From positions 64,001-128,000 of the forward strand of contig CBDUPA010000005.1 of NCBI GenBank assembly GCA_965368975.1: DNA of 64,000 nt, read 5' to 3'. The notes below the pieces were generated by a model, which did no database searches, was not told the origin of the DNA, and saw nothing but the letters and a program-made list of their open reading frames with translations. This document shows, one piece after another, positions 8,763-24,081 of this stretch (position 1 is the first letter of the stretch; the number at the start of each line of letters is the position of its first letter). Both the position numbers and the translations under genes were made by a program. This DNA is from an uncultured bacterium. Its GTDB lineage: Bacteria; Acidobacteriota; Thermoanaerobaculia; Multivoradales; JAHZIX01.

Positions 8763-9362
8763 ATGAGCGACGGCACCGATGGCATCACCGAGATCCTTCG
8801 AGAGTGGTGCGGCGGGACGCCGGAAGCGCTCGAGAAGCTCATGCCGCTGGTCTTCGGGGAGCTACGCAAGCTGGCGCGCTCACACTTCCGGCGCGAACCG
8901 TCCGGCCATACGCTACAGCCGACGGCCCTGGTCAACGAGGTCTATCTGCGCCTAGAGCGGCAGATGCACGTGCAACTGATCAACCGCACGCAGTTCTTCG
9001 CCTTCGCCTCGCGCCTGATGCGCCGCATCCTAGTCGACCACCACCGAACACGGCAGGCGGAGAAGCGCGGGAACGGGCAAGTCCTGGTGACTCTCGACGA
9101 GGCTCTGCGCGGGGGCCGCGCCGCCGCCCGCGCGAGGACGATCGAGCGAGTCGATATCCTGGCGCTGGATGAGGCCTTGGAGTTGCTCAAGGAGCTGGAT
9201 CCACGGCAGTGCCGAGTCGTCGAGCTGCGTTACTTCGGGGGCTTGACGATTCCCGAGACAGCACAGGTGCTGGGCATTTCGCCGGCCACTGTCAAGCGCG
9301 AGTGGGCCGTTGCCAAGGCGTGGCTGCAGTATCGACTCCGTTCGCCGGGGGTGTCCGTGTGA
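8763..9362 (+). CDS. ECF sigma factor, TIGR02999-type (kinase-associated)
   Basis: LMPLVFGELRKLA, HTLQPTALVNEVYLRL, VELRYFGGL, TVKREWAVAKAWL. Confidence 0.93.
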   Translation: MSDGTDGITEILREWCGGTPEALEKLMPLVFGELRKLARSHFRREPSGHTLQPTALVNEVYLRLERQMHVQLINRTQFFAFASRLMRRILVDHHRTRQAEKRGNGQVLVTLDEALRGGRAAARARTIERVDILALDEALELLKELDPRQCRVVELRYFGGLTIPETAQVLGISPATVKREWAVAKAWLQYRLRSPGVSV

Positions 9363-11653
9363 CGCGCTGGGAACGTCTGAAGCAGGTTCTGGGTGCGGTG
9401 CTCGAGCTGCCGGCCGACGAGCGGCGCGCTTTCCTCGACGCTCACTGCAATGCTGAGCTGCGGCACGAGGTCGAAGCGATTCTCGATGCTCACCAGGACG
9501 AGGGCTTTCTGGAACAGCCGGTGATCGGCGATGACAGCCTGCTGCCGGCCGAGCGTGTCGGGCCGTACCGACTGCTGGGGCGTTTGGGTTCCGGCGGCAT
9601 GGGAGATGTCTTCTTGGCCGAGCAGGAAGAGCCCATCCGGCGCCGAGTGGCACTCAAGCTGATGCGTCCCGGTGCCTTCGGCGGAGCCGCCGCCGCGCGC
9701 TTCGAAATCGAGCGCCAAGCGCTGGCACGCATGCAGCATCCCAATATCGCGCGGGTGTTTGACGCTGGCGCCGTCGAGATCGACTCGATCTTGGGTGGCC
9801 CAACCGACCGCCGTTCCTTCTTCGTCATGGAGTTGATCAGTGGCCGTGCGATCACCCGCTATTGTGACGACGAAGCGCTCAGCCTGGAGCAGCGCCTGGA
9901 GCTCTTCGTCCAGGTTTGCCGGGGCGTCCAGCACGCCCACCAGAGAGGGATCATTCACCGCGACCTCAAGCCGTCGAACGTTCTGGTCCTTGAGGAAGAC
10001 GGCCGTCCGGTACCCAAGATCATTGACTTCGGCGTCGCCAAGGCCGTCGAGACCGTGGAGGCCGGAGCCTCCGCGCAGGGCCTCACTGCTGCCGGAGCCC
10101 TGACCGATAGCGGGGCTCTGACCGGCGCGGGGCAGTGGATCGGCACACCCGAGTATATGAGTCCGGAGCAAGCCGACGCCGGCGGCAGTGCGGTGGATAC
10201 GCGCGCTGACGTCTATGCGCTGGGCGCGTTGCTCTACGAGTTGCTGACTGGGTGGCAGCCCTTCGATCCCGAAGAGCTGCGCGGTGGCGATCTGCGGCAT
10301 CTTCGTGAAGTGCTGCGCACGCATGAGCCTGTGGCGCCGAGCCGGCGCGTCGATCCCGGCAGCGAGCGCGCGCGGCGGTTGCGCGGTGATCTCGACGCCA
10401 TTGTGTCAAAGGCTTTGGAGAAAGAGCCGGAGCGCCGCTTCGCCTCAGTGGTCGAGCTGGCGGCCGACATCCAGCGCCACCTGCATCACGAAGTGGTCAG
10501 CGCCGTACAACCGAGCCGCGGGTACCGGCTGAGCAAGTTCGTGCGTCGGCACAGGACCGGTGTGGCGACGGCGGTGGCAGTGGTGCTAGCTCTTGGGTTC
10601 GGGCTGGCAGCAGCGATGGTCGGCATGGTACGAACGCGAGATGCAGAAGCTGAGGCGCTGGTTCAAGCTGCGCTGGCAGAAGAGAAGGCGGCAACGGCCG
10701 AGCAGGTCACGCTCTTTCTTTTCGACTTGTTCGAAGCCGCCAATCCGTCGCGGGCACCCCGGCCGGAACTCACCTTGCGCGAGGTTCTGGACCGCGGAGC
10801 AGAGCGTGTGCGGGTGAAGTTGGCCGATCAGCCGGAAGCGCGCGGGCAGTTGCTGTTCACCATTGGCCGTTCTTACAAGGAGCTGGGTCTGTTCGATCAG
10901 GCGCGCGAGATGCTCGAAGAGTCTGTGGCGGTTCGGCGTGGTTGTTTCGGCGACGATCACCTGATGGTTGCCGAGAGCCTGCATGTTCTGAGTGCCGTGT
11001 ACATCGACCTGGCGCTCTTCGAGACTGCCCGCTCGACAGCGCGTGAGGCGTTGGAGATCCGCAGGCGTCACCTCGGCTCAGAGCATCTCCATATCGCTGG
11101 CACCCTGAACAACCTGGCGGTGATCCACAAGCGCCTGGGAGATCTCACCGAAGCGCGGCAAGACCTTGAACGCGCACTGACGATCTACGAAAGCCAGGGT
11201 GCCTCGGCGGCGCAGCGCGCCCAGGCGCTTGACAATCTCGGTCTCTTGCTGGCTGAGTCAGGGCAGCCGGCCCTGGCACGCCCTCATTTGCAGCGCGCTC
11301 TGGCCCTGCTTGAAGCCGAGTTCGGAGTCGACAGTGGCAGACTGTCCGGAACGCTCAACAATCTGGCACTGGTCGCGGCGGAGCTGGGTGACCATGCTGC
11401 CGCTCGGGACGAGTGGCGGCGGGTGCTCGACATCGACCGTCGAACCTACGGCGACGAGCATCCCTATATCGCCTTCGGCCACTTCAATCTGGGCAAGTTG
11501 GCCGAGGAAATGGGCCAGTGCGAGATCGCCGAGGAGCACCTACGTGCCGCCGTCGAGATTCTGCGTCAGCGCCTCCCTTCGGAGCACCCGAGGCTGCGTG
11601 AGGCCACAGACTACCTCGCATCCCTCTCAGCAGGCTGTGAGGCCGGATTTTGA
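9359..11653 (+). CDS. Ser/Thr protein kinase with TM segment and TPR repeats
   Basis: GTGA overlap with sigma gene; LGSGGMGDV, VALK, HRDLKPSN, DFG, GTPEYMSPEQ; TM helix then TLNNLA-type TPRs. Confidence 0.93.
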   Translation: MTRWERLKQVLGAVLELPADERRAFLDAHCNAELRHEVEAILDAHQDEGFLEQPVIGDDSLLPAERVGPYRLLGRLGSGGMGDVFLAEQEEPIRRRVALKLMRPGAFGGAAAARFEIERQALARMQHPNIARVFDAGAVEIDSILGGPTDRRSFFVMELISGRAITRYCDDEALSLEQRLELFVQVCRGVQHAHQRGIIHRDLKPSNVLVLEEDGRPVPKIIDFGVAKAVETVEAGASAQGLTAAGALTDSGALTGAGQWIGTPEYMSPEQADAGGSAVDTRADVYALGALLYELLTGWQPFDPEELRGGDLRHLREVLRTHEPVAPSRRVDPGSERARRLRGDLDAIVSKALEKEPERRFASVVELAADIQRHLHHEVVSAVQPSRGYRLSKFVRRHRTGVATAVAVVLALGFGLAAAMVGMVRTRDAEAEALVQAALAEEKAATAEQVTLFLFDLFEAANPSRAPRPELTLREVLDRGAERVRVKLADQPEARGQLLFTIGRSYKELGLFDQAREMLEESVAVRRGCFGDDHLMVAESLHVLSAVYIDLALFETARSTAREALEIRRRHLGSEHLHIAGTLNNLAVIHKRLGDLTEARQDLERALTIYESQGASAAQRAQALDNLGLLLAESGQPALARPHLQRALALLEAEFGVDSGRLSGTLNNLALVAAELGDHAAARDEWRRVLDIDRRTYGDEHPYIAFGHFNLGKLAEEMGQCEIAEEHLRAAVEILRQRLPSEHPRLREATDYLASLSAGCEAGF

Positions 11654-12137: not shown

Positions 12138-13613
12138 TCAGCGAGCGGTGTGCAGGTGCGCGATGGAGTTCGCGTAGTACTTCAACACCGGTAGCTGTTC
12201 CGGGACGGCGGCATACAAGCCGTCGTCCCGTTCTTGCGCCAGGCGTCGCAGCAGCAGCATGCGCAAACCTACGGTGATCGCGTAGTCGCCGTCCTGGCGC
12301 GGGACGTAGACGTGCGCTCCGCTGGACTCGAACGCCTCGATCCGTTCCTGCACCCGTGCCTTGAGCTCCAACTCGGAAACGCCGCTGCAGTTCGCCTCCA
12401 ACAGGACATCGGCTACCAGTGCCACCGGCAGCACCGGAATCACGTCGCCAACCGAGGCCATCAAGTGGCGGCCCAGGTTCTCGATATGGGCGAAGTAGGG
12501 TTCCTGCTCCAGGTCCGCGAAGCCGTCGAGTTCGTGTTCGGCGAGCCAGCCGCGCATGGAGATCGGGCGCCCGAAATTGACGCAGGCGTAGCCGTAGCGA
12601 TACCAGCGCCGCGTCAGCATGCGCCATACCTGACCGCCGAAGAAGCGCAAAGTCGTCCAGGCCGCCGAGACCCCCGTCTTGCGTTCGACACCTTCCTGGC
12701 CCGCCCGCTCTTGGTTCAGCGGTGCGACATCACCCGCATCCGGGGGCGGGGCGGCGTCGAGCAAGAGCGTACGGTCCTCCAGCACACGGTCGTAGTTCAA
12801 GCCCACGGGGACGAAAACAATATCGCGCTCGCCGCCACGGTCAAATTCACGCAGCATGTAGCCGAGCAAGCCCAACTTCGCTGGCTGTAGTCGACCATCT
12901 CGCGACAGCCCACCCTCCGGGTAAATCGCTTGCGTCACGCCGTTGGCACTCGCCATCTGCACGTAGCGCTGCAGCACCCGCCGGTACAGCGCGTTGCGCG
13001 AGCGTCGACGCACGAAGTACGCACCCATCGCGCGGATCAAGGTCTCCAGCGGCCAGATGCGCGCCCATTCGCCGACCGCGTACGACAACGCCGAGCGAGC
13101 CGCCACCATGTACGACACCAGCACGTAGTCCATGTTCGAGCGGTGGTTCATCACGAACACCACCGTCGCATCCTGCGGTACCTGTTCCAGTGCTTCCTCG
13201 TCGATCGAGCCCAGCCGTACCCGGTACATCAAGCGTGCAGCCCAGCGAGCCAGCCAGTAGCCCAGCCGGAAATAGACATAGGCGTTGAATGCCGGCACGA
13301 TTTCTTCCGCGTAGCGCCGCACCTTGCCCATCACCACCTCGCGCGGCATTCCCTCCGCGCGCGCGAACTCGTCGACTGCTTCGAGCACTTGCGGATCGTA
13401 GATCAGCCGATCCAGCAGCACCTGCCGCTTGGTCAGCTTGAAGGGCTGCAGCCGGATGCGCAGGCGCGAGTTCAGCTCGTCGATCACCCGGTTCACCCGC
13501 CTGCGCAGGAACCAGCGGACCGAGGGGACGAGCAAGCGGTAGATCAGCGCCCAGCCGGCAAAGACCACCAGCAGCGCCACCAGCCACAGGGGCAGGGTGA
13601 TGGGTTGGGACAT
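12138..13613 (-). CDS. Glycerol-3-phosphate acyltransferase-like protein (PlsB/LPLAT family)
   Basis: NHRSNMD (HX4D), GAYFVRR, YPEGG motifs; N-terminal TM. Confidence 0.85.
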   Translation of the reverse strand: MSQPITLPLWLVALLVVFAGWALIYRLLVPSVRWFLRRRVNRVIDELNSRLRIRLQPFKLTKRQVLLDRLIYDPQVLEAVDEFARAEGMPREVVMGKVRRYAEEIVPAFNAYVYFRLGYWLARWAARLMYRVRLGSIDEEALEQVPQDATVVFVMNHRSNMDYVLVSYMVAARSALSYAVGEWARIWPLETLIRAMGAYFVRRRSRNALYRRVLQRYVQMASANGVTQAIYPEGGLSRDGRLQPAKLGLLGYMLREFDRGGERDIVFVPVGLNYDRVLEDRTLLLDAAPPPDAGDVAPLNQERAGQEGVERKTGVSAAWTTLRFFGGQVWRMLTRRWYRYGYACVNFGRPISMRGWLAEHELDGFADLEQEPYFAHIENLGRHLMASVGDVIPVLPVALVADVLLEANCSGVSELELKARVQERIEAFESSGAHVYVPRQDGDYAITVGLRMLLLRRLAQERDDGLYAAVPEQLPVLKYYANSIAHLHTAR

Positions 13614-13943: not shown

Positions 13944-15332
13944 TCAGATGTGAATCGCCCGGCCGTCGACCGCCAGCGCCGCTTCCTTGACGATCTCGGC
14001 GAGCGTCGGGTGGGCATGGGTGGAGCGGGCGATGTCTTCGGCGCTGGCGCTGAACTCGATGGCGACGGCGAGTTCGGCGATCAGGTCGCCGGCGTTGGCG
14101 CCGAGGATGTGAGCCCCGAGGAGACGGTCGGTGTCTTTGTGCGCCAGGAGCTTGACTTGACCTTCGGTGGCGCCGATGGCGCGGGCACGGCCGTTGGCCA
14201 TGTAGGGGAAGGTGCCCTTGGTGTAGGGGATGCCGGCGTCTTGGAGTTCTTCTTCGGTCTTGCCGGCGCAGGCGATCTCGGGGTAGGTGTAGACGACGCT
14301 GGGGATGGCGTCGTAGTTGACGTGGCCGTGGCCCTTGACGATGCCTTCGACGCAGGCGATGCCTTCGTCTTCGGCTTTGTGGGCGAGCATCGGGCCGGGA
14401 ATGACGTCGCCGATGGCGTAGTGGTTCTCGACGTTGGTGCGGAAGTGCTGGTCGACTTCGATGACGCCGCGGTCGGTGGTCGAGATGCCGGCTTTGTCGA
14501 GATCGAGGCCATCGGTGTTGGGTTTGCGACCGACGGCGACCAGGACGCGGTCGCACTCGATGGGATCGTTGCCCTCTGATTCGACGATGCACTTGTTCTT
14601 ATCGACCTTGGTACCCGTCACCTTGACGCCGAGCTTGAAGTCCATGCCCTGCTTCGTGAAGATCTTTTGCGCGCTCTTGGCCAGCTCGGCGTCCATGCCG
14701 GGCAGGATGCGGTCGAGGTATTCGAGCACGGTGACCTTGGCGCCCAGACGGTTCCACACGGAGCCGAGTTCGAGGCCGATGACGCCGGCGCCGATGACCA
14801 CCAGGTGACCGGGAACCTCGGGGTAGGAGAGGGCGGTGGTGGAGTCGCCGATGCGGTCGTCGTCGAACTCGATGCCGGGCAGGCCGGTGACCTTGGAGCC
14901 GGTGGCGACGATGACCTTGCCGGCCTCGATCGTGAGCTCATCCTTTCCGTCGACGCTCACCACGCCGGGGCCGTCGAAGCGCGCGTGCCCCTCGTAGCGT
15001 GTGATCTTGTTGCCCTTGAACAAGCCGGCCACACCCTTGGTCAGCAGGGTGACGGTCTTGTCCTTGTGCTTCATCATGCGAGCCAGGTCGAGCTCGACGC
15101 CGCTGACGCCGATGCCGAACTTCTTCAGCTCGTGCTGGGCTTCGTGGTACTTGTGGCTGGCTTCGAGCAGGGCTTTGGACGGGATGCATCCGACGCGCAG
15201 GCAGGTGCCGCCGAGGGCGCTTTCTTTCTCGACGCAGGCGACGTCGAGGCCCAGTTGAGCGGCGCGGATGGCGGCGACATAGCCGCCCGGGCCGGCGCCG
15301 AGGACCAGCAGATCGTGCTTGGCTTGTTTCAT
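13944..15332 (-). CDS. lpdA: Dihydrolipoamide dehydrogenase (E3)
   Basis: GAGPGGY, GGTCLRVGCIPSK, HAHPTLAE motifs. Confidence 0.97.
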   Translation of the reverse strand: MKQAKHDLLVLGAGPGGYVAAIRAAQLGLDVACVEKESALGGTCLRVGCIPSKALLEASHKYHEAQHELKKFGIGVSGVELDLARMMKHKDKTVTLLTKGVAGLFKGNKITRYEGHARFDGPGVVSVDGKDELTIEAGKVIVATGSKVTGLPGIEFDDDRIGDSTTALSYPEVPGHLVVIGAGVIGLELGSVWNRLGAKVTVLEYLDRILPGMDAELAKSAQKIFTKQGMDFKLGVKVTGTKVDKNKCIVESEGNDPIECDRVLVAVGRKPNTDGLDLDKAGISTTDRGVIEVDQHFRTNVENHYAIGDVIPGPMLAHKAEDEGIACVEGIVKGHGHVNYDAIPSVVYTYPEIACAGKTEEELQDAGIPYTKGTFPYMANGRARAIGATEGQVKLLAHKDTDRLLGAHILGANAGDLIAELAVAIEFSASAEDIARSTHAHPTLAEIVKEAALAVDGRAIHI

Positions 15333-15342
15333 GATGTCTCTC

Positions 15343-16599
15343 TTAGGCTTCGATCAGCATGCGGGCCGGATCTTCGATGCAGTCCTTGACGCGCACCAGG
15401 AAGGTGACGGCTTCGCGGCCGTCGACCAGGCGGTGGTCGTAGGTGAGGGCGACGTACATGATCGGGCGGATGACGACTTCACCGTCGATGGCGACCGGGC
15501 GCTGCTGGATGTTGTGCATGCCCAGGATGCCGCTTTGCGGCGGGTTGACGATCGGCGTCGACAGCATGGAGCCGTAAATGCCGCCGTTGCTGATGGTGAA
15601 GGTACCGCCCTGCAACTCGTCGGCAGTCAGGCTGCCGTCCTTGGCCTTGCCGGCCAGTTCGCCGATGGTCTGCTCGACCCCGGCGAAGCTGAGACGCTCG
15701 GCGTTGCGAATCACCGGCACCACCAGGCCTTGACCGCCGCCTACCGCGACGCCGATGTCGTAGTAGTTGTGGTAAAGGATCTTGCCGTCGTCGATGCGCG
15801 CATTCAGCGCGGGGATCTCTTTCAGGCCTTCGATCACCGCCTTGACGAAGAAGCTCATGAAGCCGAGCTTGATGCCGTGCTTCTTGACGAAGGCGTCCTG
15901 GTGCTGCTTGCGCAGGTTCATGACGGCCGACATGTCGACTTCGTTGAAGGTGGTGAGCAGCGCGGAGGTCTGCTGCGATTCGACCAGGCGCTCGGCGATG
16001 CGTCGACGCAGGGTCGTCATGCGCACGGCCTTTTGCTCGCGCGCGCCGCCAGGGGACGCCACGGCCGGCGATGCCGCGGCAGGCGATGCTGAGGGTGCCG
16101 CTTGCGGAGCTGTCTTCTGCTGTGCTGTCTTCTGCAGCGTCAAGTGACGTTGCACGTCTTCCTTCAGCAGACGGCCACCAGGGCCACTGGCTTCGACGTC
16201 GGCGGCGTCGAGGCCGGCCTCGTCGAGCAGGCGGCGTGCGGCGGGCATGACGCGCTCGTCGCTGGCTGTCTCGCCACCCTTGGCTTTGTCGCCGTCTTGG
16301 TCCTTCTCGGTGCTGGCCTTCTTCTGGTTGGCGCTGGCGCTATCTCCGGCAGTAGCGACTTCCCCCTCTTCCATCTTGCCAATGACCTCGCCGACCTCGG
16401 CTTCTTCGCCCTCTTGCTTGAGGATCTCGATCAGTGTGCCGGACACCGGCGCGGGCAGCTCGGTGGTGACCTTGTCGGTCTCGATAATGACGATCGTATC
16501 GTCGGCCTTGACCGATCCGCCGGGCTGGACTTGCCACTCGCCGATCACGACTTCGGTGATGGATTCACCCACGGAGGGGACTTTGAGTTCGATGGCCAT
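15343..16599 (-). CDS. sucB: Dihydrolipoyllysine succinyltransferase (E2o)
   Basis: Lipoyl IETDKV, E3-binding GSGPGGR-like segment, TYDHRLVDG; between sucA and lpdA. Confidence 0.96.
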
Positions 16600-16614: not shown

Positions 16615-19600
16615 TCAGGCGGCGCGCAGGGCGGCGTCGATGAGTTCTTTCTGTTCTTTGTCGTGGGCGGCTTTAGAACCGGTCGCGGGGCTGGCGGAGG
16701 CGGGGCGGTAGATGCCTTGCAACTGCCTCTTGCCCAGGGCGCCGCCACCTGAGGCGCCACCGGTGAGATGAGCTTGCAGGAAGCGCCAGGCACCCATGTT
16801 CTCGGGCTCTTCTTGGACCCAGACGACGGGCTTGGATTCGGGGTAGACGTCGAGCACCTGGCGCAACTCGCCGGGTCGCAGGGGGTAGTACTGCTCGAGG
16901 CGCAGGATGGCGGTATCGTCGAGGCCGCGTTCAGTGCGGGCGGCGGTGAGGTCGTAGTAGACCTTGCCGCTGCACAGCAAGACCCGCTCGACCTTCTTCG
17001 GGTCGAGGCCGGTAGTGTCGGGCAGGATGCGCTGGAAGCGTCCGTTGGCCAGCTCGTCGAGGCTGGAGATGGCTTCCTTGTGGCGCAACAAGCTCTTGGG
17101 CGACATGACGATCAGCGGCTTGCGCAGGGGCCGGTGCACCTGACGGCGCAGGCAGTGGAAGAGCTGTGCCGGGGTGGTCAGATTCACCACCTGCAGGTTG
17201 TCCTCGGCGCACAGATTGAGGAAGCGCTCCAGGCGTGCGCTCGAGTGCTCGGGGCCTTGTCCTTCGAAGCCGTGTGGCAGCAGCATTGCCAGGCTGTTGA
17301 GCCGGTGCCACTTGTCTTCGCTGCTGGAGATGAACTGGTCGATGATCACCTGCGCGACGTTGACGAAGTCACCGAACTGCGCTTCCCACAGGGTCAAGCC
17401 ATCCGGGAAGTCGAGGCTGTAGCCGTACTCGAAGCCGGTTGGGCCGACTTCGGACAGCGGACTGTCCCAGACCTCGAAGCGTCCGGGCGGGCTGCTGACG
17501 TCGTCGAGGTGCTCGTGCAGGTACTGCAGCGGCAGGTAGAGACCACCGTCTTTCTGGTCGTGCAGCACCGCGTGGCGATGGCTGAAGGTGCCGCGGCCTG
17601 CATCCTGGCCACTCAAGCGCACCTGCTTGCCCTCGGTGAGGAGGGTCGCGAAGGCGAGCGCTTCGCCGGCCGCCCAGTCGAGCGGTCGTGCGCCGGCGGC
17701 CATGTCACGGCGGGCCTGCAGCAGAATGCGGCGCAGGGTCTTGTGGACCTCGAAGCCTTCCGGAACCTCGGTCTGAGCGCGCAGCAAAGCGCTCAGCCGC
17801 TCGGCGTCGACCCCGGTGTCGACATCCTCGACCTCGTGATCGATGTCGCCCTTGTAGGGGGTCCAGACGCCACCGCCGAAGTCGACGTCCGTATGCTCGT
17901 AATCGTCGCGGCGGGCTTCGTCGAGGGCCTTGTCCAGCAGCTCGTGGCGCTCTTTCTCGATGCTGTCGGCTTCTTCGGCGCTGACCTCACCGAGTTGCAG
18001 CAGGCTATCCAGGTAGCCCTCGCGCACCGACTTGCGCTGTGCAATCTTGTCGTACATCTGTGGCTGCGTGAACCATGGCTCGTCGCCTTCGTTGTGGCCG
18101 TAGCGACGGTAGCAGTACATGTCGATAATGACATCGCTGTCGAAGGTGCGGCGGTAGTCCATGGCGATGCGCAGCACCTGCGCCACCGCCTCGGGATGCT
18201 CGCCATTGACGTGGAAGACCGGCGTCTGCAGCATCTTGGCGACATCGGTGGCGTAGTGGCAGGAGCGGCCGCTCTCGGGCGGCGTGGTGAAGCCGACCTG
18301 GTTGTTGACGATGATGTGCAGAGTACCGCCGGTGCGGAAGCCGGGTAGCTTGCTCATGTTGAGCATTTCCTGCACCACGCCCTGGCCGGCGAAGGCGGCG
18401 TCGCCGTGGATCACCAGGCCCATGACGCGCTCGCGTCGGGCGCCGTCGCCGCGGCGGTCCTGTTTGGCGCGCACGCGGCCGAGGACCACGGGACCGACGA
18501 ACTCCAGGTGGCTGGGGTTGAAGCACAACGACAGATGAAGCTGCTTGTCGTTGGAGGTGGTGCGGTCCGAGCTGTAGCCGAGGTGGTACTTGACGTCGCC
18601 GCGGCCAAGGTACTTCTCCGGGTCCACATCCTCGAACTCGCGAAAGATGCGCGCCGCGCTCTTGCCCAGGATGTTGGCCATCACGTTGAGCCGGCCGCGG
18701 TGCGCCATGCCGATCACCACTTCCTCGACGCCGTGTTCGCCGGCTTCGTCGAGTGCTTGGTCGAGCAAGGGGATCAGGGTTTCGGCACCCTCGGCCGAGA
18801 AGCGCTTGGCGCCGCGGAACTTGTTGTGGATGAACTCTTCGAAGATCTGGGCGTCGGTGAGCTTGGTGAGAATGCGCAGTTGCTCGTCACGGCTCAATTT
18901 GCGCCGCTGCTCGGGGTCTTCCAGGCGCTCCTGCAACCAGCGTTTGGGCGCCGGGTCGTCGATGTGCATGTACTGGACGGCGATCGACTTGCAGTAGCTG
19001 GCTTCCAGGCGCTCGCGAATCTCACGTAGGGTGAGGAAGGTGGTGCCCGGGATGGTGGTGCTCGAGAAGACGGTGTCGAGGTCGTCCTCGCTGAGGTCCC
19101 ATTCTTCGAGCCGTAGCTCGGGAATGGTGTTGCGCTCGGGCGGGGGGCTCAGGGGATCGAGGTGGGCGAGCAGGTGGCCACGCACGCGGTAGACGCGGAT
19201 CAGCTGGTCGACGCGGTCTTGCTTGCGGTCGATGTCGCGGATGCGGGTCGACAGGCCGCGTAGCAGGCCGCGGGCCAGTGCCGGACGCTCGTTCAGGCGT
19301 GCCATCAGCACCTTGCCGGGCAGGCGCAGCAGACGGGTCGTGCCGCGGCACACGGCGTTGGCGATGCGCGGCTGCTGCTGCAACACGCCCAGCTCGCCTA
19401 CCATCATGCCGACACCGAGCTCGGCACGCACGCGGCCGTCGACGGTGATCACGACGCTACCGTCCAGCACCACGAACAGCGCTTCGCTCGCGTCGCCCTG
19501 GCGGAACAGCAGGTCACCGGAGGCGTACTCCAGCTCTCTGGCATGCTCGAGCAACTGGCGGATCTCGTCGTCCGGTAGGTCGTGGAAGAGGTCCAGGCTG

Positions 19601-19926
19601 TGCAGCGATGGCAGCAGGTCGCCGGTAATCGGCTCACGGCGTCGGGGTTGCGCCAGTTGGGCCGCCGGGGCCGTCTGGGCTGTCGGAGCTGCACCGGGAG
19701 GATTGAACAAGCTCGTCGCTGCGAACGGGGATCCGAAGCTGAGCTCGGAGGCATTGCCTGTGTCGACACTGCCGCCGCTGCTGCCGGCCGCGTCGTCGGC
19801 ACGCAGGCGCTCGAAGAGAGGGCGCCAGGCGGCGTCGACCGAATCGGGGTCGTCGCGGAAGCGTTGGTAGAGGGATTCGACGAAGGGGAGGTTGTCGCTG
19901 TTGAGCAGCTCGCCAAGTTCTCGCAT
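16615..19926 (-). CDS. sucA: 2-oxoglutarate dehydrogenase E1 with inserted cNMP-binding domain
   Basis: DPDSVDAAW, YRVRGH, GAKRFSAEG, GMAHRGRLN, HGDAAFAGQG, WEAQFGDF, GPEHSSAR motifs; extra CAP-type domain at about 19234..19605. Confidence 0.96.
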   Translation of the reverse strand: MRELGELLNSDNLPFVESLYQRFRDDPDSVDAAWRPLFERLRADDAAGSSGGSVDTGNASELSFGSPFAATSLFNPPGAAPTAQTAPAAQLAQPRRREPITGDLLPSLHSLDLFHDLPDDEIRQLLEHARELEYASGDLLFRQGDASEALFVVLDGSVVITVDGRVRAELGVGMMVGELGVLQQQPRIANAVCRGTTRLLRLPGKVLMARLNERPALARGLLRGLSTRIRDIDRKQDRVDQLIRVYRVRGHLLAHLDPLSPPPERNTIPELRLEEWDLSEDDLDTVFSSTTIPGTTFLTLREIRERLEASYCKSIAVQYMHIDDPAPKRWLQERLEDPEQRRKLSRDEQLRILTKLTDAQIFEEFIHNKFRGAKRFSAEGAETLIPLLDQALDEAGEHGVEEVVIGMAHRGRLNVMANILGKSAARIFREFEDVDPEKYLGRGDVKYHLGYSSDRTTSNDKQLHLSLCFNPSHLEFVGPVVLGRVRAKQDRRGDGARRERVMGLVIHGDAAFAGQGVVQEMLNMSKLPGFRTGGTLHIIVNNQVGFTTPPESGRSCHYATDVAKMLQTPVFHVNGEHPEAVAQVLRIAMDYRRTFDSDVIIDMYCYRRYGHNEGDEPWFTQPQMYDKIAQRKSVREGYLDSLLQLGEVSAEEADSIEKERHELLDKALDEARRDDYEHTDVDFGGGVWTPYKGDIDHEVEDVDTGVDAERLSALLRAQTEVPEGFEVHKTLRRILLQARRDMAAGARPLDWAAGEALAFATLLTEGKQVRLSGQDAGRGTFSHRHAVLHDQKDGGLYLPLQYLHEHLDDVSSPPGRFEVWDSPLSEVGPTGFEYGYSLDFPDGLTLWEAQFGDFVNVAQVIIDQFISSSEDKWHRLNSLAMLLPHGFEGQGPEHSSARLERFLNLCAEDNLQVVNLTTPAQLFHCLRRQVHRPLRKPLIVMSPKSLLRHKEAISSLDELANGRFQRILPDTTGLDPKKVERVLLCSGKVYYDLTAARTERGLDDTAILRLEQYYPLRPGELRQVLDVYPESKPVVWVQEEPENMGAWRFLQAHLTGGASGGGALGKRQLQGIYRPASASPATGSKAAHDKEQKELIDAALRAA

Positions 19927-20036
19927 CTCGGCGATTGTATCCGGAATCTTTTACTCCTGTCCCGCGGTAGTAGAGGGCAGGTACGGAGTATAGGTACGAT
20001 GTCGAAGTGCGCGAACCGGAGGAGGAACGGAGACTG

Positions 20037-21965
20037 ATGCAGATTCGATGCGATCGGACGCTCTCGGGAATTGTCAGGTCATTTTGGACACAGGTCTGGA
20101 CGCTGGCTCTGGTCTTGGTTGGGACGGCGGCGGTTCCCGCCCTGGGAAGTGCACTTCCATCCGAGGCAAGCCTGCCTTCCGAAGACGTGGTTTGGTGGCG
20201 CCTGGACACGCACAATTTCACGCTCTTCAGCTCCGCTGACCTGGCGGTCGCGGAGTCCGTTATCCTGGATCTCGAACGCCTGCGGGCGGTGCTGGCACGG
20301 CTGGGTGGCGAGAATTTGGAGCTGAACTCGCCGGTGCCGACCTACCTCTTTCTCTTCGCCGACGGAGAGAGTTTCGGGCCCTATACGCGTTGGAGGAGCA
20401 CGCAGCCTCAGAAAGCAGTCGCCGGCTTCTTCCTGCCCGGTCCGATCGCCAACTATGTCGCCATGCGCGGCGATCTCGGGGCCGAGCGCGCGTCCGAGGT
20501 GGTGTACCACGAGTACTTGCACTACTTGCTGGAGAGCAACTTTGCGGATGTACCTCTGTGGTTCAACGAGGGCTTGGCCGAGTTCTACAGCACCTTCCGT
20601 GTCACCCGCCGACACGTGGTGCTCGGCATGCCGATCCTTGATCATCTACGACGCTTGGAGAAACGGGGCTTGATGCCGCTGGACTTGCTCTTCGCCATCG
20701 ACAGCGACTCTGAGGTCTACCGGCAGCACAGCCTTCGTCGCGACACCTTCTATGCCCAGAGCTGGGCACTGGTGCATCACTTGCTGAACGACGAGCAGCG
20801 CCGGCCGCAGATTATGCAGTACTTGCAATTCCTGGCTGCCGACGTGCCGCTGCGAGATGCTTTCGATCAGGCATTCGGCGGTGACAGCTTCGCCACGTTG
20901 CGCGGCGAGGTGCAAATGGCGCTGGACAACCATCGCTTCCAAGCTACTTCCGTACCGCTGGTCGAGATCGGCCTGCTGGAGCCACCGGAGCTTCTGCGCC
21001 GGGAGCGCATGTCCCGTGCCGAAGTCCTCGTGCGGTTGGGTGACCTGCTGATCCAGCTGCGAGGTGTCGAGGCTCACGAGCCGCGCGAGTTCTTTAGTGC
21101 TGCTCTCGATCTCGACCCCGAGCACGGCCTCGCCTGGTTCGGTTTGGCCCAACTCAAGGAACGGGCGCTGAGCTGGGACGAAGCCGAGGTCCTGTACCGG
21201 CAGGCGGTGGAGCTGACACCGAATGATTTCCGGCCGTACTTCTTGCTCGCCAACAATCTGTTGCGTCCTTACAGCGGGCTGCGCATCTCCATGGGCGATG
21301 TGCAGGCAGAGGACCAGGCGCGTCTGCGCGAGGCGCGCATTTTGTACCGTCAAGCGCTGGAACTCAATCCGCGCTTCGGTGAAGCCTGGGGTGGTCTCGG
21401 GGCCAGCTGGCTGCTGGAAGAGCGACCTTCCCAGGAAGCCCTGGGGGCTCTCGATACGGCGCGCCGGTTACTGCCCGGCCGCAGCGATGTCACCTTCAAT
21501 CTGGCGGTGCTGCAGGCGCGCCTCGGTCGGCTCGACGTGGCTCGTACGCTGATCGAGCGTGAGTTGGAGCGTCCCGATGTCGATCCCAACCTGGCTCGTG
21601 GCGCACGCGAGGCCGTGCTGTGGGCCGAGGTTCGTCAGGCCGAGCGCTTGCTGACGGCGGGCCAGGTCGAGAAAGCCTTGGCTCTGCTCGAAGATGTCAC
21701 CAGCCGCGCCGAAGACCCGCAGCTGCAAGCACAGCTACGAGAGCATCTGGAGGCGGTTCGCTCGGCTGAGCACAACCCACTGCGGGCCGAGTATGAGCAA
21801 GCTGTCAGCACCATCGAACGCGGGCAGTACGAGCAAGCCGAGGAGCAGCTGGTGGCCATGCTCGAGAAATTGGGGCCGGAGCCCGCCGGCGAGCGCGAAC
21901 GTTCCTTGCGTCGTTGGGCCGAGACGCAGTTGGAAGCGGTGCGCTGGCTACGTGCTCGGCAGTGA
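20037..21965 (+). CDS. Secreted gluzincin-like (DUF1570/peptidase MA-like) domain plus TPR protein
   Basis: Signal-like N-terminus; YHEYLH...WFNEGLAE, FYAQSWALVH; TPR-like C-terminal half; GGAGGAGG RBS. Confidence 0.78.
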   Translation: MQIRCDRTLSGIVRSFWTQVWTLALVLVGTAAVPALGSALPSEASLPSEDVVWWRLDTHNFTLFSSADLAVAESVILDLERLRAVLARLGGENLELNSPVPTYLFLFADGESFGPYTRWRSTQPQKAVAGFFLPGPIANYVAMRGDLGAERASEVVYHEYLHYLLESNFADVPLWFNEGLAEFYSTFRVTRRHVVLGMPILDHLRRLEKRGLMPLDLLFAIDSDSEVYRQHSLRRDTFYAQSWALVHHLLNDEQRRPQIMQYLQFLAADVPLRDAFDQAFGGDSFATLRGEVQMALDNHRFQATSVPLVEIGLLEPPELLRRERMSRAEVLVRLGDLLIQLRGVEAHEPREFFSAALDLDPEHGLAWFGLAQLKERALSWDEAEVLYRQAVELTPNDFRPYFLLANNLLRPYSGLRISMGDVQAEDQARLREARILYRQALELNPRFGEAWGGLGASWLLEERPSQEALGALDTARRLLPGRSDVTFNLAVLQARLGRLDVARTLIERELERPDVDPNLARGAREAVLWAEVRQAERLLTAGQVEKALALLEDVTSRAEDPQLQAQLREHLEAVRSAEHNPLRAEYEQAVSTIERGQYEQAEEQLVAMLEKLGPEPAGERERSLRRWAETQLEAVRWLRARQ

Positions 21966-22033: not shown

Positions 22034-23245
22034 TCAAGTCGAGACGAGTTGGGCGATGCTCTTGCCGACCCGCGGTGCGGCTTGCCAGGAACCAAAGATG
22101 AAGCGTTGCGCCGGGCCGAAGGCCCCCTCGGAGATGCCACCGGCCATGTAGAGGCCGGGCACCACGGTCTGGAAGGCTCCGTCCAGGGCCGGTGGCTGGT
22201 CGGGGTCACCGAGGGCGTCACGCAGGCGGTCCGAGAGGAACGGGATGCCGCGGACGGTACAGCGGTAGCCCGTCGCCGCGATCACACGGTCAAAGGGGCG
22301 CTCGTCGCCGGTCTCGGCCGAGGCTGCGGTGCAGATGATGCCACCTTCGACCGCCGTGAGCCCCAGTTCGGCCGCGTCGCCGTAAATCTTCCTCACGGCA
22401 CCATCTTGGAACACTGGCCTCAGGTCTGGCGTCACCGTGGTACGGAAGCACGTACGGCCGAGCCATACGCGCAGGGGCTGTGGCAGCCGGTAGTAGGCGG
22501 CGGAGCCGCGCAGTACCAGGCGGAAGAGCGGCCGTGGTAGCCGCAGTGGCTCGCCGAAGAATGACGGCGCCTCGCGCATCGCCCAGGTGACCTCGTTGCC
22601 GTGACGTCGCAGGCAGGCGACGGTCTCCGCGGCGCTCTGGCCGCTGCCGATCACCAGCAGTCTCTCGCCTTGCAGCGGCTGAATACGGTCGGTTTGCCAG
22701 CTGTGCAGCACGCGCTCGGTCGGCAGTGCCGCCAGCGGTGGTGGAAAGTGCTGGTGCGGTCCCATTCCGGTGGCGACAACCACCGCTCTGGCCGTCACCT
22801 CCTGGCCGTCGTCGAAGCGAGCACGGAAGCTGGGATGGTGGGCTTGCTGCAGCGCTCCGTCCTCCAGCAAGCGAGGCTCATCAGCGAAGTCCAGATGCTC
22901 GACCTGGGCTGGTTCGACCTCGAACGGCAGCTGGTCGGACACCCAGTGCAAGTAGTCGCGGAAGATCGCCACCGGCACCTGACCATCGACCATCGGTGTC
23001 CTGCCATTCGATGGTGCCTTGCCGTTCAGCTGCGTCTTGAAGTGGCGGAAAGCGTAGCGGCCGTCGCGCGAGTAGATCTCCGAGGCGTTCTGGTCCGAGC
23101 GCAGCTTGATCGAGTCCAGCGTGTGCTGCAGCCACAGGGCGAAAGGTTCGCCACAGATCCGGAAGCCGAGGCCGCGGTGGTGCAGTTCTTGAGCGATGCC
23201 GGTGCCATACGGCCCGGCGCCGATAATCAGAGCTTGGTTGTCCAT
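22034..23245 (-). CDS. FAD/NAD(P)H-dependent oxidoreductase (flavoprotein monooxygenase-like)
   Basis: IIGAGPYG, VATG, VIGSGQSAAE, AATGY, VPGLY motifs. Confidence 0.83.
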   Translation of the reverse strand: MDNQALIIGAGPYGTGIAQELHHRGLGFRICGEPFALWLQHTLDSIKLRSDQNASEIYSRDGRYAFRHFKTQLNGKAPSNGRTPMVDGQVPVAIFRDYLHWVSDQLPFEVEPAQVEHLDFADEPRLLEDGALQQAHHPSFRARFDDGQEVTARAVVVATGMGPHQHFPPPLAALPTERVLHSWQTDRIQPLQGERLLVIGSGQSAAETVACLRRHGNEVTWAMREAPSFFGEPLRLPRPLFRLVLRGSAAYYRLPQPLRVWLGRTCFRTTVTPDLRPVFQDGAVRKIYGDAAELGLTAVEGGIICTAASAETGDERPFDRVIAATGYRCTVRGIPFLSDRLRDALGDPDQPPALDGAFQTVVPGLYMAGGISEGAFGPAQRFIFGSWQAAPRVGKSIAQLVST

Positions 23246-23253
23246 CGAGTGTC

Positions 23254-24081
23254 TTAGCGGTCTTGGGCTTCGCCGGTCATCGTCGGTGCGCGTACCGGCG
23301 CTACCTTGCGGCGTTCGAGGCCGTCCTCGGTCTTGGTGATCACGACGAGGTCTTGCAAGAACTCGCCGCCGCCGATCGGGATCACCATCTTACCGCCATC
23401 TTTGAGTTGGTCGAGTAGCGGTTGCGGAATAAAGGGGGGAGCGGCAGTGAGGATGATGGCGTCGAAGGGCGCTTGCGCCGGCCAGCCGTTGTAACCGTCG
23501 CCGATACGCACGTCGATGTTCGTAAAGCCCATGGTTGCCAGCCGTCGCCGGGCCAGGCGGCCGAGCACTTCGCTGATCTCGACCGTACACACCTGACGCG
23601 CCACGCGCGCCAGGACTGCAGTGTGGTAGCCCGAGCCAGTACCGATCTCCAGCACCTTCTCGTCACCGCTCAATTCGAGCAACTCGGTCATGCGCGCCAC
23701 CATGTAGGGCGGGTAGATGCTGGGCCCCTCGTGGCCCGCTCCGGTCAGTGGGATCGGCTCGTCCTCGTAGGCGCGGGCGCGCAGCCGGTCGGGGACGAAG
23801 AGGTGTCGCGGCACGTTCTCCATGGCTTCGAGCACGGACTCCTGCGAGATGCCGCGCGGGATGATCTGTTCCTGCACCATCATCTGCCGCAGGTCGCGCT
23901 GTGAGGGGTCGTCACCGAGAGTTCCGGGAGCCGCGGTCTGAGCCGCCGCGGGTTGCACAGTGGGTATTGCGAGCAGGCCGCAAACGAGCAGGCTGCAGAC
24001 AAGCCGGCCGGAGGAGAGGCAGCTCATCCACCGGGGTGCTGCGAGGCGTCCGGCGCCCACGGCCGGCTGGCGAGGACTCAC
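23254..24081 (-). CDS. pcm: Protein-L-isoaspartate O-methyltransferase with N-terminal signal-like extension
   Basis: VPRHLFVP, VLEIGTGSGYHTA, GDGYNGWP..APFDAII, QLKDGG. Confidence 0.9.
   Translation of the reverse strand: MSPRQPAVGAGRLAAPRWMSCLSSGRLVCSLLVCGLLAIPTVQPAAAQTAAPGTLGDDPSQRDLRQMMVQEQIIPRGISQESVLEAMENVPRHLFVPDRLRARAYEDEPIPLTGAGHEGPSIYPPYMVARMTELLELSGDEKVLEIGTGSGYHTAVLARVARQVCTVEISEVLGRLARRRLATMGFTNIDVRIGDGYNGWPAQAPFDAIILTAAPPFIPQPLLDQLKDGGKMVIPIGGGEFLQDLVVITKTEDGLERRKVAPVRAPTMTGEAQDR

What the first reader, a model, noticed from the sequence alone, without database searches (positions are those of the whole stretch)
19234..19605. Cyclic-nucleotide-binding domain inserted into 2-oxoglutarate dehydrogenase E1
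Seen: between the conserved N-terminal DPDSVDAAW helix and the YRVRGH motif there is about 125 aa reading LDLFHDL...LFRQGD....LFVVLDGSV...GMMVGELGVLQQQPRIANAVC..TRLLRL, which makes SucA 1103 aa. Known: this is the CAP/cNMP fold with an intact phosphate-binding cassette (GE...PR.A); canonical SucA has only a flexible linker here, and described bacterial ODH control uses other routes (e.g. OdhI/GarA in actinobacteria). Inference: direct cAMP/cGMP allosteric control of the TCA cycle at the carbon/nitrogen branch point. I do not know of a characterised example.
Basis: partly seen in the sequence, partly recalled or inferred. Interest (0 to 1): 0.85.

Follow-up and report, generated by a model that had tools for sequence, protein, structure and literature searches.

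The report
Cyclic-nucleotide sensor built into SucA
The only 2-oxoglutarate dehydrogenase E1 enzyme of this bacterium carries an intact cyclic-nucleotide-binding domain joined by one long predicted helix to its catalytic core, a conserved but untested design that suggests a second messenger directly controls a central TCA-cycle step.

Summary
ORF 16615-19926 (-) encodes a 1103-aa SucA/E1o (NCBIfam equivalog 1217 bits against a cut-off of 764). It has a PF00027 cNMP-binding domain (52.7 bits against 27.5) at residues ~104-235. The domain sits between the N-terminal docking helices plus disordered linker and the E1 core.

It is not an assembly chimera. The same architecture occurs in 12 of 61 related genomes, in 31 of 80 loci kept from public MAG contigs, and in 117 stored protein-cluster representatives. 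The phosphate-binding cassette is almost invariant: Gly 117/117, Glu 115/117, Arg 115/117. The distance from the domain to the YRVRGH motif has no indel in 36/36 aligned fusions. AlphaFold2 predicts one uninterrupted helix (215-253) from the sensor's C-helix into the E1 core.

This is the genome's only SucA and it heads a sucA-sucB-lpd operon. An FHA-GAF-class III cyclase is present elsewhere in the genome.

The most likely reading is cAMP-dependent allosteric control of E1o. Ligand, direction and effect are inferred, not shown. Five literature searches found no description. I file it as a new variant of known kinds.

The parts
16615..19926 (-). sucA: 1103-aa 2-oxoglutarate dehydrogenase E1 component with an inserted cNMP-binding domain. 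It is the only SucA of the genome.
   Evidence: ORF. Pfam five-domain architecture. NCBIfam NF006914 1217 bits against cut-off 764. PF16870 has a single match in G000. The AF2 model matches V. vulnificus SucA 6kma/6km9 at TMt 0.94-0.95.
19798..19905 (-). N-terminal docking region (residues 8-43, PF16078), predicted as helices 10-25 and 35-47.
   Evidence: Pfam 39 bits against cut-off 27. AF2 helices with pLDDT 77-89. The equivalent human E1o residues 18-40 bind E2o and E3 (PMC8146983, passages read).
19642..19779 (-). Disordered Gly/Ala/Pro-rich linker (residues ~50-95).
   Evidence: AF2 pLDDT is 30-35 over residues 50-90 with no secondary structure. The stretch is variable and gapped in the alignments.
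19222..19617 (-). Cyclic-nucleotide-binding (CNB) domain, residues ~104-235.
   Evidence: PF00027 52.7 bits. AF2 pLDDT 78-91 with beta-barrel plus helices. Foldseek matches to CRP, GlxR, PKA-R, PKG and HCN CNB domains at E ~1e-11. Profile hits to solved CNB domains.
19360..19398 (-). Phosphate-binding cassette GELGVLQQQPRIA (G177, E178, R187, A189).
   Evidence: Translation. Conservation: G177 117/117, E178 115/117, R187 115/117, A189 116/117 cluster representatives; 36/36, 36/36, 33/36 and 36/36 in alignment A3.
19168..19284 (-). Predicted single helix 215-253 that joins the CNB C-helix (with invariant R228 and R230) to the first helix of the E1o core (QDRVDQLIRVYRVRGH).
   Evidence: AF2 full-length helix H215-253 with pLDDT 80-91. 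The same helix appears in the domain-only model as H118-158. Residues 108-255 number exactly 148 in 36/36 fusions. Only 6 of 117 representatives have any indel.
16615..19221 (-). E1o catalytic core (residues 236-1103): E1_dh, Transket_pyr and OxoGdeHyase_C.
   Evidence: 45-49% identity to solved SucA chains.
15343..16599 (-). sucB: E2o dihydrolipoyl succinyltransferase (lipoyl, E3-binding and catalytic domains), directly downstream.
   Evidence: Pfam PF00364, PF02817 and PF00198. A SucB homologue lies directly downstream in 16 of 29 fusion loci.
13944..15332 (-). lpd: E3 dihydrolipoyl dehydrogenase, third gene of the operon.
   Evidence: Pfam Pyr_redox_2 and Pyr_redox_dim.

Best explanation
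The gene encodes the housekeeping E1o (SucA) of the 2-oxoglutarate dehydrogenase complex with a built-in cyclic-nucleotide receptor. The N-terminal helices (8-47) still dock the enzyme to E2o/E3 through a disordered tether (50-95). After the tether comes a canonical CNB domain (104-235). Its C-helix is predicted to continue, without a break and at a fixed length, into the first helix of the E1o core.

I propose that cAMP binds the cassette (E178, R187). cAMP is the likely ligand because the genome's clear class III cyclase is of the adenylate type. Binding would move the C-helix, as in other CNB proteins. Through the rigid helix, that movement would shift the E1o core between a resting and an active state. 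This would tune flux through the 2-oxoglutarate node.

Shown here: the architecture, its conservation, the intact cassette, the junction of fixed length, the single SucA copy, the operon, and the presence of a cyclase. Inferred: ligand binding, ligand identity, transmission through the helix, and the sign of the effect.
For: The five-domain architecture passes every curated cut-off.

The architecture recurs widely. It is in 8 further clusters in the first protein search, in 12 of 61 related genomes including G000, and in 30 complete plus 1 truncated of 80 public MAG loci. Of the 182 proteins stored span the domain-to-core junction, and 105 of those are full-length.

The cassette residues are nearly invariant, and so are R228 and R230 in the C-helix. 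No indel occurs between residue 108 and 255 in 36/36 fusions.

AF2 predicts one helix, 215-253, at pLDDT 80-91 in the full-length model and again in the domain-only model.

The domain profile and the model match bona fide cNMP binders.

The fusion is the only SucA in G000 and in 5 of 5 tested relatives, and it heads sucA-sucB-lpd.

The genome has an FHA-GAF-Guanylate_cyc protein (96-99 bits). This protein has Lys four residues before the second metal Asp, which marks the adenylate type by a rule that I recall. All 5 of 5 tested fusion-bearing relatives also have class III cyclases.

There is a precedent for the E1o core switching between resting and active states under allosteric ligands: acetyl-CoA and OdhI/GarA in OdhA/KGD (PMC10415282, passages read).
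Against: There is no biochemical evidence of any kind.

Three of 36 aligned fusions (L028, L043, L086) have Trp in place of the cassette Arg and an altered beta2-beta3 loop. Two of 117 representatives have Trp or His there. So cNMP binding is not universal in the family.

No cyclase gene lies next to the fusion in 0 of 29 loci.

The FHA-GAF cyclase is found across the order. It gives matches in 54 of 61 genomes, including families without the fusion, so there is no specific co-occurrence.

The continuous helix is a prediction from 42 and 31 sequences. I could not inspect model coordinates, so contacts between sensor and core are unknown.

CRP/FNR-type folds can bind ligands other than cNMP (recalled).
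Confidence: 0.55

Rival explanations
1. The domain has the CNB fold but senses something other than cAMP/cGMP (another nucleotide, a nucleoside, or a metabolite such as 2-oxoglutarate), or it is a ligand-free structural or dimerisation module of E1o.
For: Cassette Arg is replaced by Trp in 3 of 36 aligned fusions, and those members also have a changed beta2-beta3 loop, yet they keep the domain. Foldseek's best matches include CRP-family regulators with the long C-helix that forms their dimer interface. By recall, the CRP/FNR superfamily contains members that bind 2-oxoglutarate, haem or other ligands, and trypanosome PKA-R binds nucleosides (6flo and 6hyi are listed as cAMP-independent).
Against: Gly-Glu...Arg-x-Ala at the canonical spacing is kept in 115-117 of 117 representatives. 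The top sequence matches are genuine cAMP/cGMP binders. The window's own protein has all the cassette residues.
Confidence: 0.22
2. The domain binds cNMP but controls assembly rather than catalysis. It would change how E1o is tethered to, or released from, the E2o core (or which core it joins), because it sits next to the docking segment and linker.
For: The domain lies directly after the flexible tether that follows the E2o/E3-docking helices (PMC8146983 passages).
Against: The conserved, fixed-length, helical connection is on the core side, not the tether side. The tether is variable and disordered. 17 of 105 full-length representatives, and loci L023, L024 and L055, lack the N-terminal segment altogether but keep sensor plus core.
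Confidence: 0.12
3. Assembly chimera or mis-joined contig: the domain does not belong to sucA.
For: None found.
Against: The same in-frame architecture is present in dozens of independent assemblies from NCBI, JGI, ENA and Logan at 35-55% identity. There is no compositional break. A 798-nt soil-metagenome contig at 92% identity spans 18900-19301, across the sensor/core junction (record 1).
Confidence: 0.01

Closest known systems
Canonical bacterial SucA / E1o (E. coli 2jgd, Vibrio vulnificus 6km9/6kma)
   Same: Same N-terminal docking motif, ThDP-dependent core, Transket_pyr and C-terminal domains. 45-49% identity and TMt 0.94-0.95 to the model. Same sucA-sucB-lpd operon.
   Different: Canonical enzymes have only a linker where this protein has a ~130-aa CNB domain. 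No cyclic-nucleotide control of them is on record in the searches I ran.
Actinobacterial OdhA/KGD with its regulators OdhI/GarA (FHA proteins) and acetyl-CoA
   Same: An E1o with an extra domain fused ahead of the small helical domain of the core. The core switches between resting and active conformations under allosteric effectors at the 2-oxoglutarate node (PMC10415282, passages). Foldseek matches 2xt6, 8p5r and 8p5v.
   Different: There the fused domain is an E2o acyltransferase joined by a 17-residue linker, and regulation is by a separate FHA protein and acetyl-CoA. Here the fused domain is a sensor, no PF00198 is present in the protein, and the join is predicted to be helical and of fixed length.
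Mycobacterial cAMP-regulated protein lysine acetyltransferase Pat (Rv0998 type; NCBIfam NF058543)
   Same: A CNB domain at the N-terminal side of an enzyme in one polypeptide. That cAMP acts directly on that enzyme is recalled; I saw only search listings. The window's domain hits this model's CNB part (35.3 bits, residues 111-194).
   Different: The enzyme there is a GNAT acetyltransferase. The whole-protein score here is far below the cut-off (35.3 against 460), so this protein is not a member.
CRP/GlxR-family cAMP receptor proteins
   Same: CNB fold with a long C-helix. They are the best structural matches of the domain model (4ev0, 3r6s, 4a2u, 1g6n).
   Different: No helix-turn-helix DNA-binding domain follows here. 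The C-helix leads into an enzyme instead. NCBIfam CRP score is 33.1 against cut-off 266.

Membership tests
2-oxoglutarate dehydrogenase E1 component (SucA/E1o) | Whole-protein match to curated equivalog models | tested here: met
   NF006914 1217.2 bits (cut-off 764); TIGR00239 1071.5 bits (cut-off 770)
2-oxoglutarate dehydrogenase E1 component (SucA/E1o) | E1_dh (ThDP), Transket_pyr and OxoGdeHyase_C domains in order, plus the N-terminal PF16078 motif | tested here: met
   All four are over their Pfam cut-offs
2-oxoglutarate dehydrogenase E1 component (SucA/E1o) | Fold of solved SucA | tested here: met
   AF2 pLDDT 82.6; Foldseek 6kma E 1e-87, TMt 0.95, 49% identity
2-oxoglutarate dehydrogenase E1 component (SucA/E1o) | Genomic partnership with E2o and E3 | tested here: met
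   sucB and lpd lie directly downstream on the same strand
2-oxoglutarate dehydrogenase E1 component (SucA/E1o) | 2-oxoglutarate decarboxylation and reductive succinylation activity | not testable with these tools
   Needs an enzyme assay
Cyclic-nucleotide-binding domain (PF00027) | Profile match over the gathering score | tested here: met
   52.7 bits against 27.5, E 4.1e-14; over the cut-off also in L024, L055 and L028
Cyclic-nucleotide-binding domain (PF00027) | Phosphate-binding cassette: Gly-Glu, then Arg nine residues after the Glu, followed by x-Ala (residue-level motif recalled; the role of the PBC is given in PMC2246266) | tested here: met
   GELGVLQQQPRIA; conserved in 115-117 of 117 representatives
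Cyclic-nucleotide-binding domain (PF00027) | Eight-stranded beta-barrel with flanking helices | tested here: met
   AF2 domain model pLDDT 85.8; Foldseek hits to CRP, PKA-R, PKG and HCN CNB domains
Cyclic-nucleotide-binding domain (PF00027) | Binding of cAMP or cGMP | not testable with these tools
   Needs ITC, DSF or a co-structure
CRP/FNR transcription factors | C-terminal helix-turn-helix DNA-binding domain and whole-protein model score | tested here: not met
   No HTH family in Pfam; NF008732 33.1 bits against cut-off 266
cAMP-regulated acetyltransferase Pat (NF058543) | GNAT domain after the CNB domain; model cut-off of 460 bits | tested here: not met
   35.3 bits, CNB part only
Actinobacterial two-in-one OdhA/KGD | E2o acyltransferase domain (PF00198) fused N-terminally to E1o | tested here: not met
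   No PF00198 in this protein. NF008907 aligns only its E1o part, model positions 396-1240.

The most novel reading that the evidence does not exclude
In several lineages of uncultured bacteria, cAMP acts directly on the TCA cycle. By record labels these are mostly Acidobacteriota/Thermoanaerobaculia and Myxococcota, plus a few Gammaproteobacteria. The housekeeping E1o would be a second-messenger-gated enzyme: ligand-driven movement of the sensor's C-helix is passed down a rigid, register-locked helix into the core. This would be a built-in counterpart of the actinobacterial OdhI/GarA switch at the carbon/nitrogen branch point. In the window's lineage it could be fed by a conserved FHA-GAF adenylate cyclase, and so ultimately by Ser/Thr-kinase signalling.
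Probability: 0.4. Interest if true: 0.8.

Novelty: new variant of a known kind. Interest (0 to 1): 0.62.

Why it matters
Known control of bacterial 2-oxoglutarate dehydrogenase works through gene expression, metabolite effectors such as acetyl-CoA, or FHA-protein inhibitors in actinobacteria (the last two in PMC10415282, passages read; the first recalled). A cyclic-nucleotide receptor fused in a fixed register to the only E1o of a genome would be a new, direct route from a second messenger to central carbon and nitrogen flux.

The fixed-length junction makes the mechanism easy to test. Insertions that shift the helical register should uncouple sensor and enzyme. The design could also be reused as a cAMP-switchable ThDP enzyme.

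It would also give a physiological output for cAMP signalling in poorly known, mostly uncultured soil and sediment phyla.

Tried and rejected
(1) Chimeric assembly was rejected on recurrence.

(2) Read mapping of the source sample could not be done. No run held more than 0.09 of the sampled words and no RNA holder was listed. Laying four coded runs at 80% likeness gave only relatives' fragments. One 798-nt contig spans 18900-19301. I draw no expression or habitat conclusion from this.

(3) Complex prediction with two copies of residues 98-262, to ask whether the sensors pair through the long helix as CRP does, gave 0.30 against a mark of 0.42. That is no verdict, and I do not use it either way.

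(4) A cyclase as gene neighbour: 0 of 29 fusion loci.

(5) Specific co-occurrence of the FHA-GAF cyclase with the fusion was rejected. Matches occur in 54 of 61 relatives, including families without the fusion.

(6) The phylum-wide profile tally (93 of 401) is not a fusion count, because generic CNB proteins pass E 1e-25. Only hits that reach the junction count: G000, G333 and G081.

(7) My first motif-based count of fusions missed variants. I replaced it with an HMM-based count.

(8) L008 (G004) contains withheld N stretches and was left out of all alignments. L016 (gene split by a frameshift) and L023 (cut by the contig end) were left out of A3 and the tree.

(10) Supplementary files of papers were not available. 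The family tables of the 2007 CNB census (PMC2246266) may list architectures that its main text does not.
Full report
**What is there**

On the minus strand, ORF 16615-19926 encodes a 1103-aa protein. Pfam finds five domains in order:
- 2-oxogl_dehyd_N, residues 8-43, 39 bits
- cNMP_binding PF00027, residues 132-209, E 4.1e-14, 52.7 bits against a gathering score of 27.5
- E1_dh, residues 362-677
- Transket_pyr, residues 748-948
- OxoGdeHyase_C, residues 954-1100

NCBIfam's SucA equivalog scores 1217 bits against a cut-off of 764, aligned from residue 230 onward.

The cassette GELGVLQQQPRIA lies at 19360-19398. Plain SucA relatives show only gaps across this stretch. GC content shows no break.

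**Context**

Directly downstream on the same strand lie sucB and lpd. sucB (15343-16599) has lipoyl, E3-binding and acyltransferase domains.

The window's genome is 7.13 Mb in 59 contigs and 99.3% complete. It has a single match to the SucA C-terminal family, and that match is this gene. The sensor therefore sits on the housekeeping enzyme, not on a spare paralogue.

The same holds in 5 of 5 tested fusion-bearing relatives and in three further genomes reached through loci. Two genomes whose records are labelled Gammaproteobacteria carry a second SucA as well.

**Not a chimera; a family**

- A search with residues 1-260 found 8 further clusters with the same five-domain architecture from four sources.
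- Among 61 related genomes (including the window's own), 12 have a hit that runs from the sensor into the YRVRGH motif within a frame of 1004 aa or more. By family that is 5 of 5 in the window's own family, 5 of 6 in one other and 1 of 1 in a third. None was found in the nine other families sampled in the same order.
- A scan of public genome contigs with a domain alignment kept 80 loci out of 253 confirmed. Of these, 30 have sensor and E1 core in one ORF, and one more is cut by a contig end.
- The record labels of those 31 loci split as follows: 15 Acidobacteriota, Thermoanaerobaculia or Ca. Multivoradales; 8 Myxococcota, 'Deltaproteobacteria' or Bradymonadales; 4 gammaproteobacterial orders; 4 other or unlabelled. 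Labels of MAGs are not reliable. One record labelled Deltaproteobacteria has the same first 60 residues as a member of the window's own family.
- A profile search for longer proteins gave 155 hits at E <= 1e-20, of which 120 were listed.
- Of the 182 proteins stored, an HMM-based script found 117 that span sensor to junction. Of those, 105 are at least 900 aa with E1 motifs.
- In an even sample of 401 genomes of the phylum, only 3 had junction-spanning hits: G000, G333, and G081 with two copies. The design is therefore patchy.
- A FastTree of the E1 core alone used 84 rows and 852 columns, with the sensor excluded. It puts 35 of 36 fusion rows in one group at support 85, below the star threshold. 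P0009 is unresolved next to a small clade of plain SucAs. This fits one origin with later spread, but it does not prove it.

**Is the sensor intact?**

| Residue | 36 aligned fusions | 117 representatives |
|---|---|---|
| G177 | 36/36 | 117/117 |
| E178 | 36/36 | 115/117 |
| R187 | 33/36 (Trp in L028, L043, L086) | 115/117 |
| A189 | 36/36 | 116/117 |
| R228 (C-helix) | 36/36 | 117/117 |
| R230 (C-helix) | 36/36 | 116/117 |

The Glu-to-Arg spacing and the Gly-Glu...Arg-x-Ala pattern are the canonical cassette. The residue-level motif is recalled. That the cassette anchors the cyclic phosphate is stated in PMC2246266 (passages).

A profile of the domain hits solved PKG, PKA-R, Epac, Crp and MlotiK1 domains. 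An AF2 model of residues 98-262 (pLDDT 85.8) matches CRP, GlxR, PKA-R, PKG and HCN domains by Foldseek.

**How it is joined**

From residue 108 to 255 every one of the 36 aligned fusions has exactly 148 residues. Among the 117 representatives, only 4 have a one-residue insertion and 2 have deletions.

The full-length AF2 model (42-row alignment, pLDDT 82.6, pTM 0.78) gives the following:
- helices 10-25 and 35-47
- a disordered stretch at 50-90 (pLDDT 30-35)
- a confident sensor
- one uninterrupted helix, 215-253, from the sensor's C-helix through RIRDIDRKQDRVDQLIRVYRVRGH into the core (pLDDT 80-91)

The domain-only model repeats this helix. The rest of the full-length model superposes on V. 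vulnificus and E. coli SucA and on M. smegmatis KGD.

So the flexible tether lies upstream of the sensor, and the rigid connection is to the core. A variant architecture supports this. 17 of 105 full-length representatives, and loci L023, L024 and L055, start with the sensor and lack the docking segment, yet keep the same junction.

**Ligand supply**

The genome has one clear class III cyclase, an FHA-GAF-Guanylate_cyc protein. It has Lys four residues before the second metal-binding Asp, and an Asp ahead of the conserved Asn-containing helix. By a rule I recall, this pair marks adenylate rather than guanylate cyclases. About ten other CNB domains occur in the genome.

All five tested fusion-bearing relatives have class III cyclases. 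However, the FHA-GAF cyclase is widespread in the order whether or not the fusion is present. No cyclase lies beside the fusion in 0 of 29 loci. This shows only that a ligand is available.

**Mechanism proposed**

The N-terminal segment corresponds to the part of human E1o (residues 18-40) that binds E2o and E3. Crystal structures of E. coli E1o lack the first 77 residues (PMC8146983, passages).

In actinobacterial OdhA/KGD the E1o part begins with a small helical domain. The core there switches between resting and active conformations under acetyl-CoA and the FHA inhibitor OdhI/GarA (PMC10415282, passages).

I propose three steps:
1. A cyclic nucleotide, most likely cAMP, binds the cassette.
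2. Binding repositions the C-helix.
3. Because that helix is continuous with the first core helix at a fixed register, the movement biases the E1o core between such states.

Whether the ligand activates or inhibits cannot be told from sequence.

**Rivals**

- A different ligand or a structural role (0.22). This is supported by the Trp variants and by the CRP-like long helix.
- Control of assembly rather than catalysis (0.12). This is weakened by the variable tether and by the variant that lacks the docking segment.
- Chimera (0.01).

**Comparison and novelty**

The protein is a member of SucA/E1o, and its insert is a member of PF00027. It is not a CRP-family regulator, not a Pat-type acetyltransferase and not a two-in-one OdhA.

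It works most like a CNB-enzyme fusion of the mycobacterial Pat kind (recalled; I saw only listings). It occupies the regulatory niche that OdhI/GarA fill in actinobacteria.

I found no paper on this architecture:
- '2-oxoglutarate dehydrogenase' with 'cyclic nucleotide-binding domain': 3 papers, all unrelated by title and abstract start
- 'cNMP' with 'SucA': 0 papers
- a four-term search: 0 papers
- 'ketoglutarate dehydrogenase' with 'cyclic nucleotide-binding': 1 paper, unrelated
- the main text of the 2007 CNB census has 0 occurrences of 'dehydrogenase' or 'oxoglutarate'; its supplements were not visible

Sources that name these proteins mostly call them '2-oxoglutarate dehydrogenase E1 component'.

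Two earlier notes of this scan describe the same architecture in other genomes. They are leads, not evidence. My own results agree with them.

**Verdict**

The feature is real and conserved, and it is new as a variant of known kinds. The function is plausible but untested.

Noticed in passing
L023, L024:3995-6961, L055:3938-6937; 17 of 105 full-length cluster representatives: A variant architecture starts with the CNB domain and lacks the N-terminal E2o/E3-docking motif (no PF16078 hit), yet keeps the same sensor-core junction. The genome of L055 has a second SucA. The genome of L024 does not have one in what is held.
   Followed up: partly
L028, L043, L086 (also G010/L014 and G038/L011): A subclade has Trp in place of the cassette Arg (PWSAD) and an altered beta2-beta3 loop, but retains the domain and junction. 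It may have lost or changed its ligand.
   Followed up: partly
G000:C14:185192-186844 (L001:397-2049): FHA-GAF-class III cyclase of 551 aa. Matches at E <= 1e-20 occur in 54 of 61 related genomes, with near-full-length hits at 52-60% identity in most families. An FHA domain on the cyclase suggests an input from Ser/Thr-kinase signalling.
   Followed up: partly
window 20007-21965 (+): A DUF1570 plus TPR protein is encoded divergently, 80 bases upstream of sucA. A homologue lies upstream of the fusion in L015 and L022 (2 of 29 loci).
   Followed up: partly
window 9209-11653 (+): An 814-aa Ser/Thr protein kinase with a long TPR region lies about 2.3 kb beyond the end of the suc operon.
   Followed up: no
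G081:C222:7496-7981 and G081:C227:2225-2713: One genome of the phylum sample carries two junction-spanning CNB-SucA copies (frames of 1114 and 925 aa).
   Followed up: no
L016:3752-6268 and downstream: In this long-read MAG the CNB-sucA gene is split by a frameshift. The remainder of the E1 core continues in another frame.
   Followed up: no
fusion loci L024, L027, L030, L031, L034, L036, L038, L039, L044, L045, L053, L055, L061: In 13 of 29 fusion loci no SucB homologue was found in the flank downstream of the fusion, so the operon link is not universal.
   Followed up: no
window 12138-13613 (-), 22034-23245 (-), 23254-24081 (-): The neighbours are a PlsB-like glycerol-3-phosphate acyltransferase, a flavin monooxygenase-like protein, and a protein-L-isoaspartate O-methyltransferase with a long hydrophobic N-terminal extension. 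None was found next to the fusion in other loci (0 of 29).
   Followed up: partly
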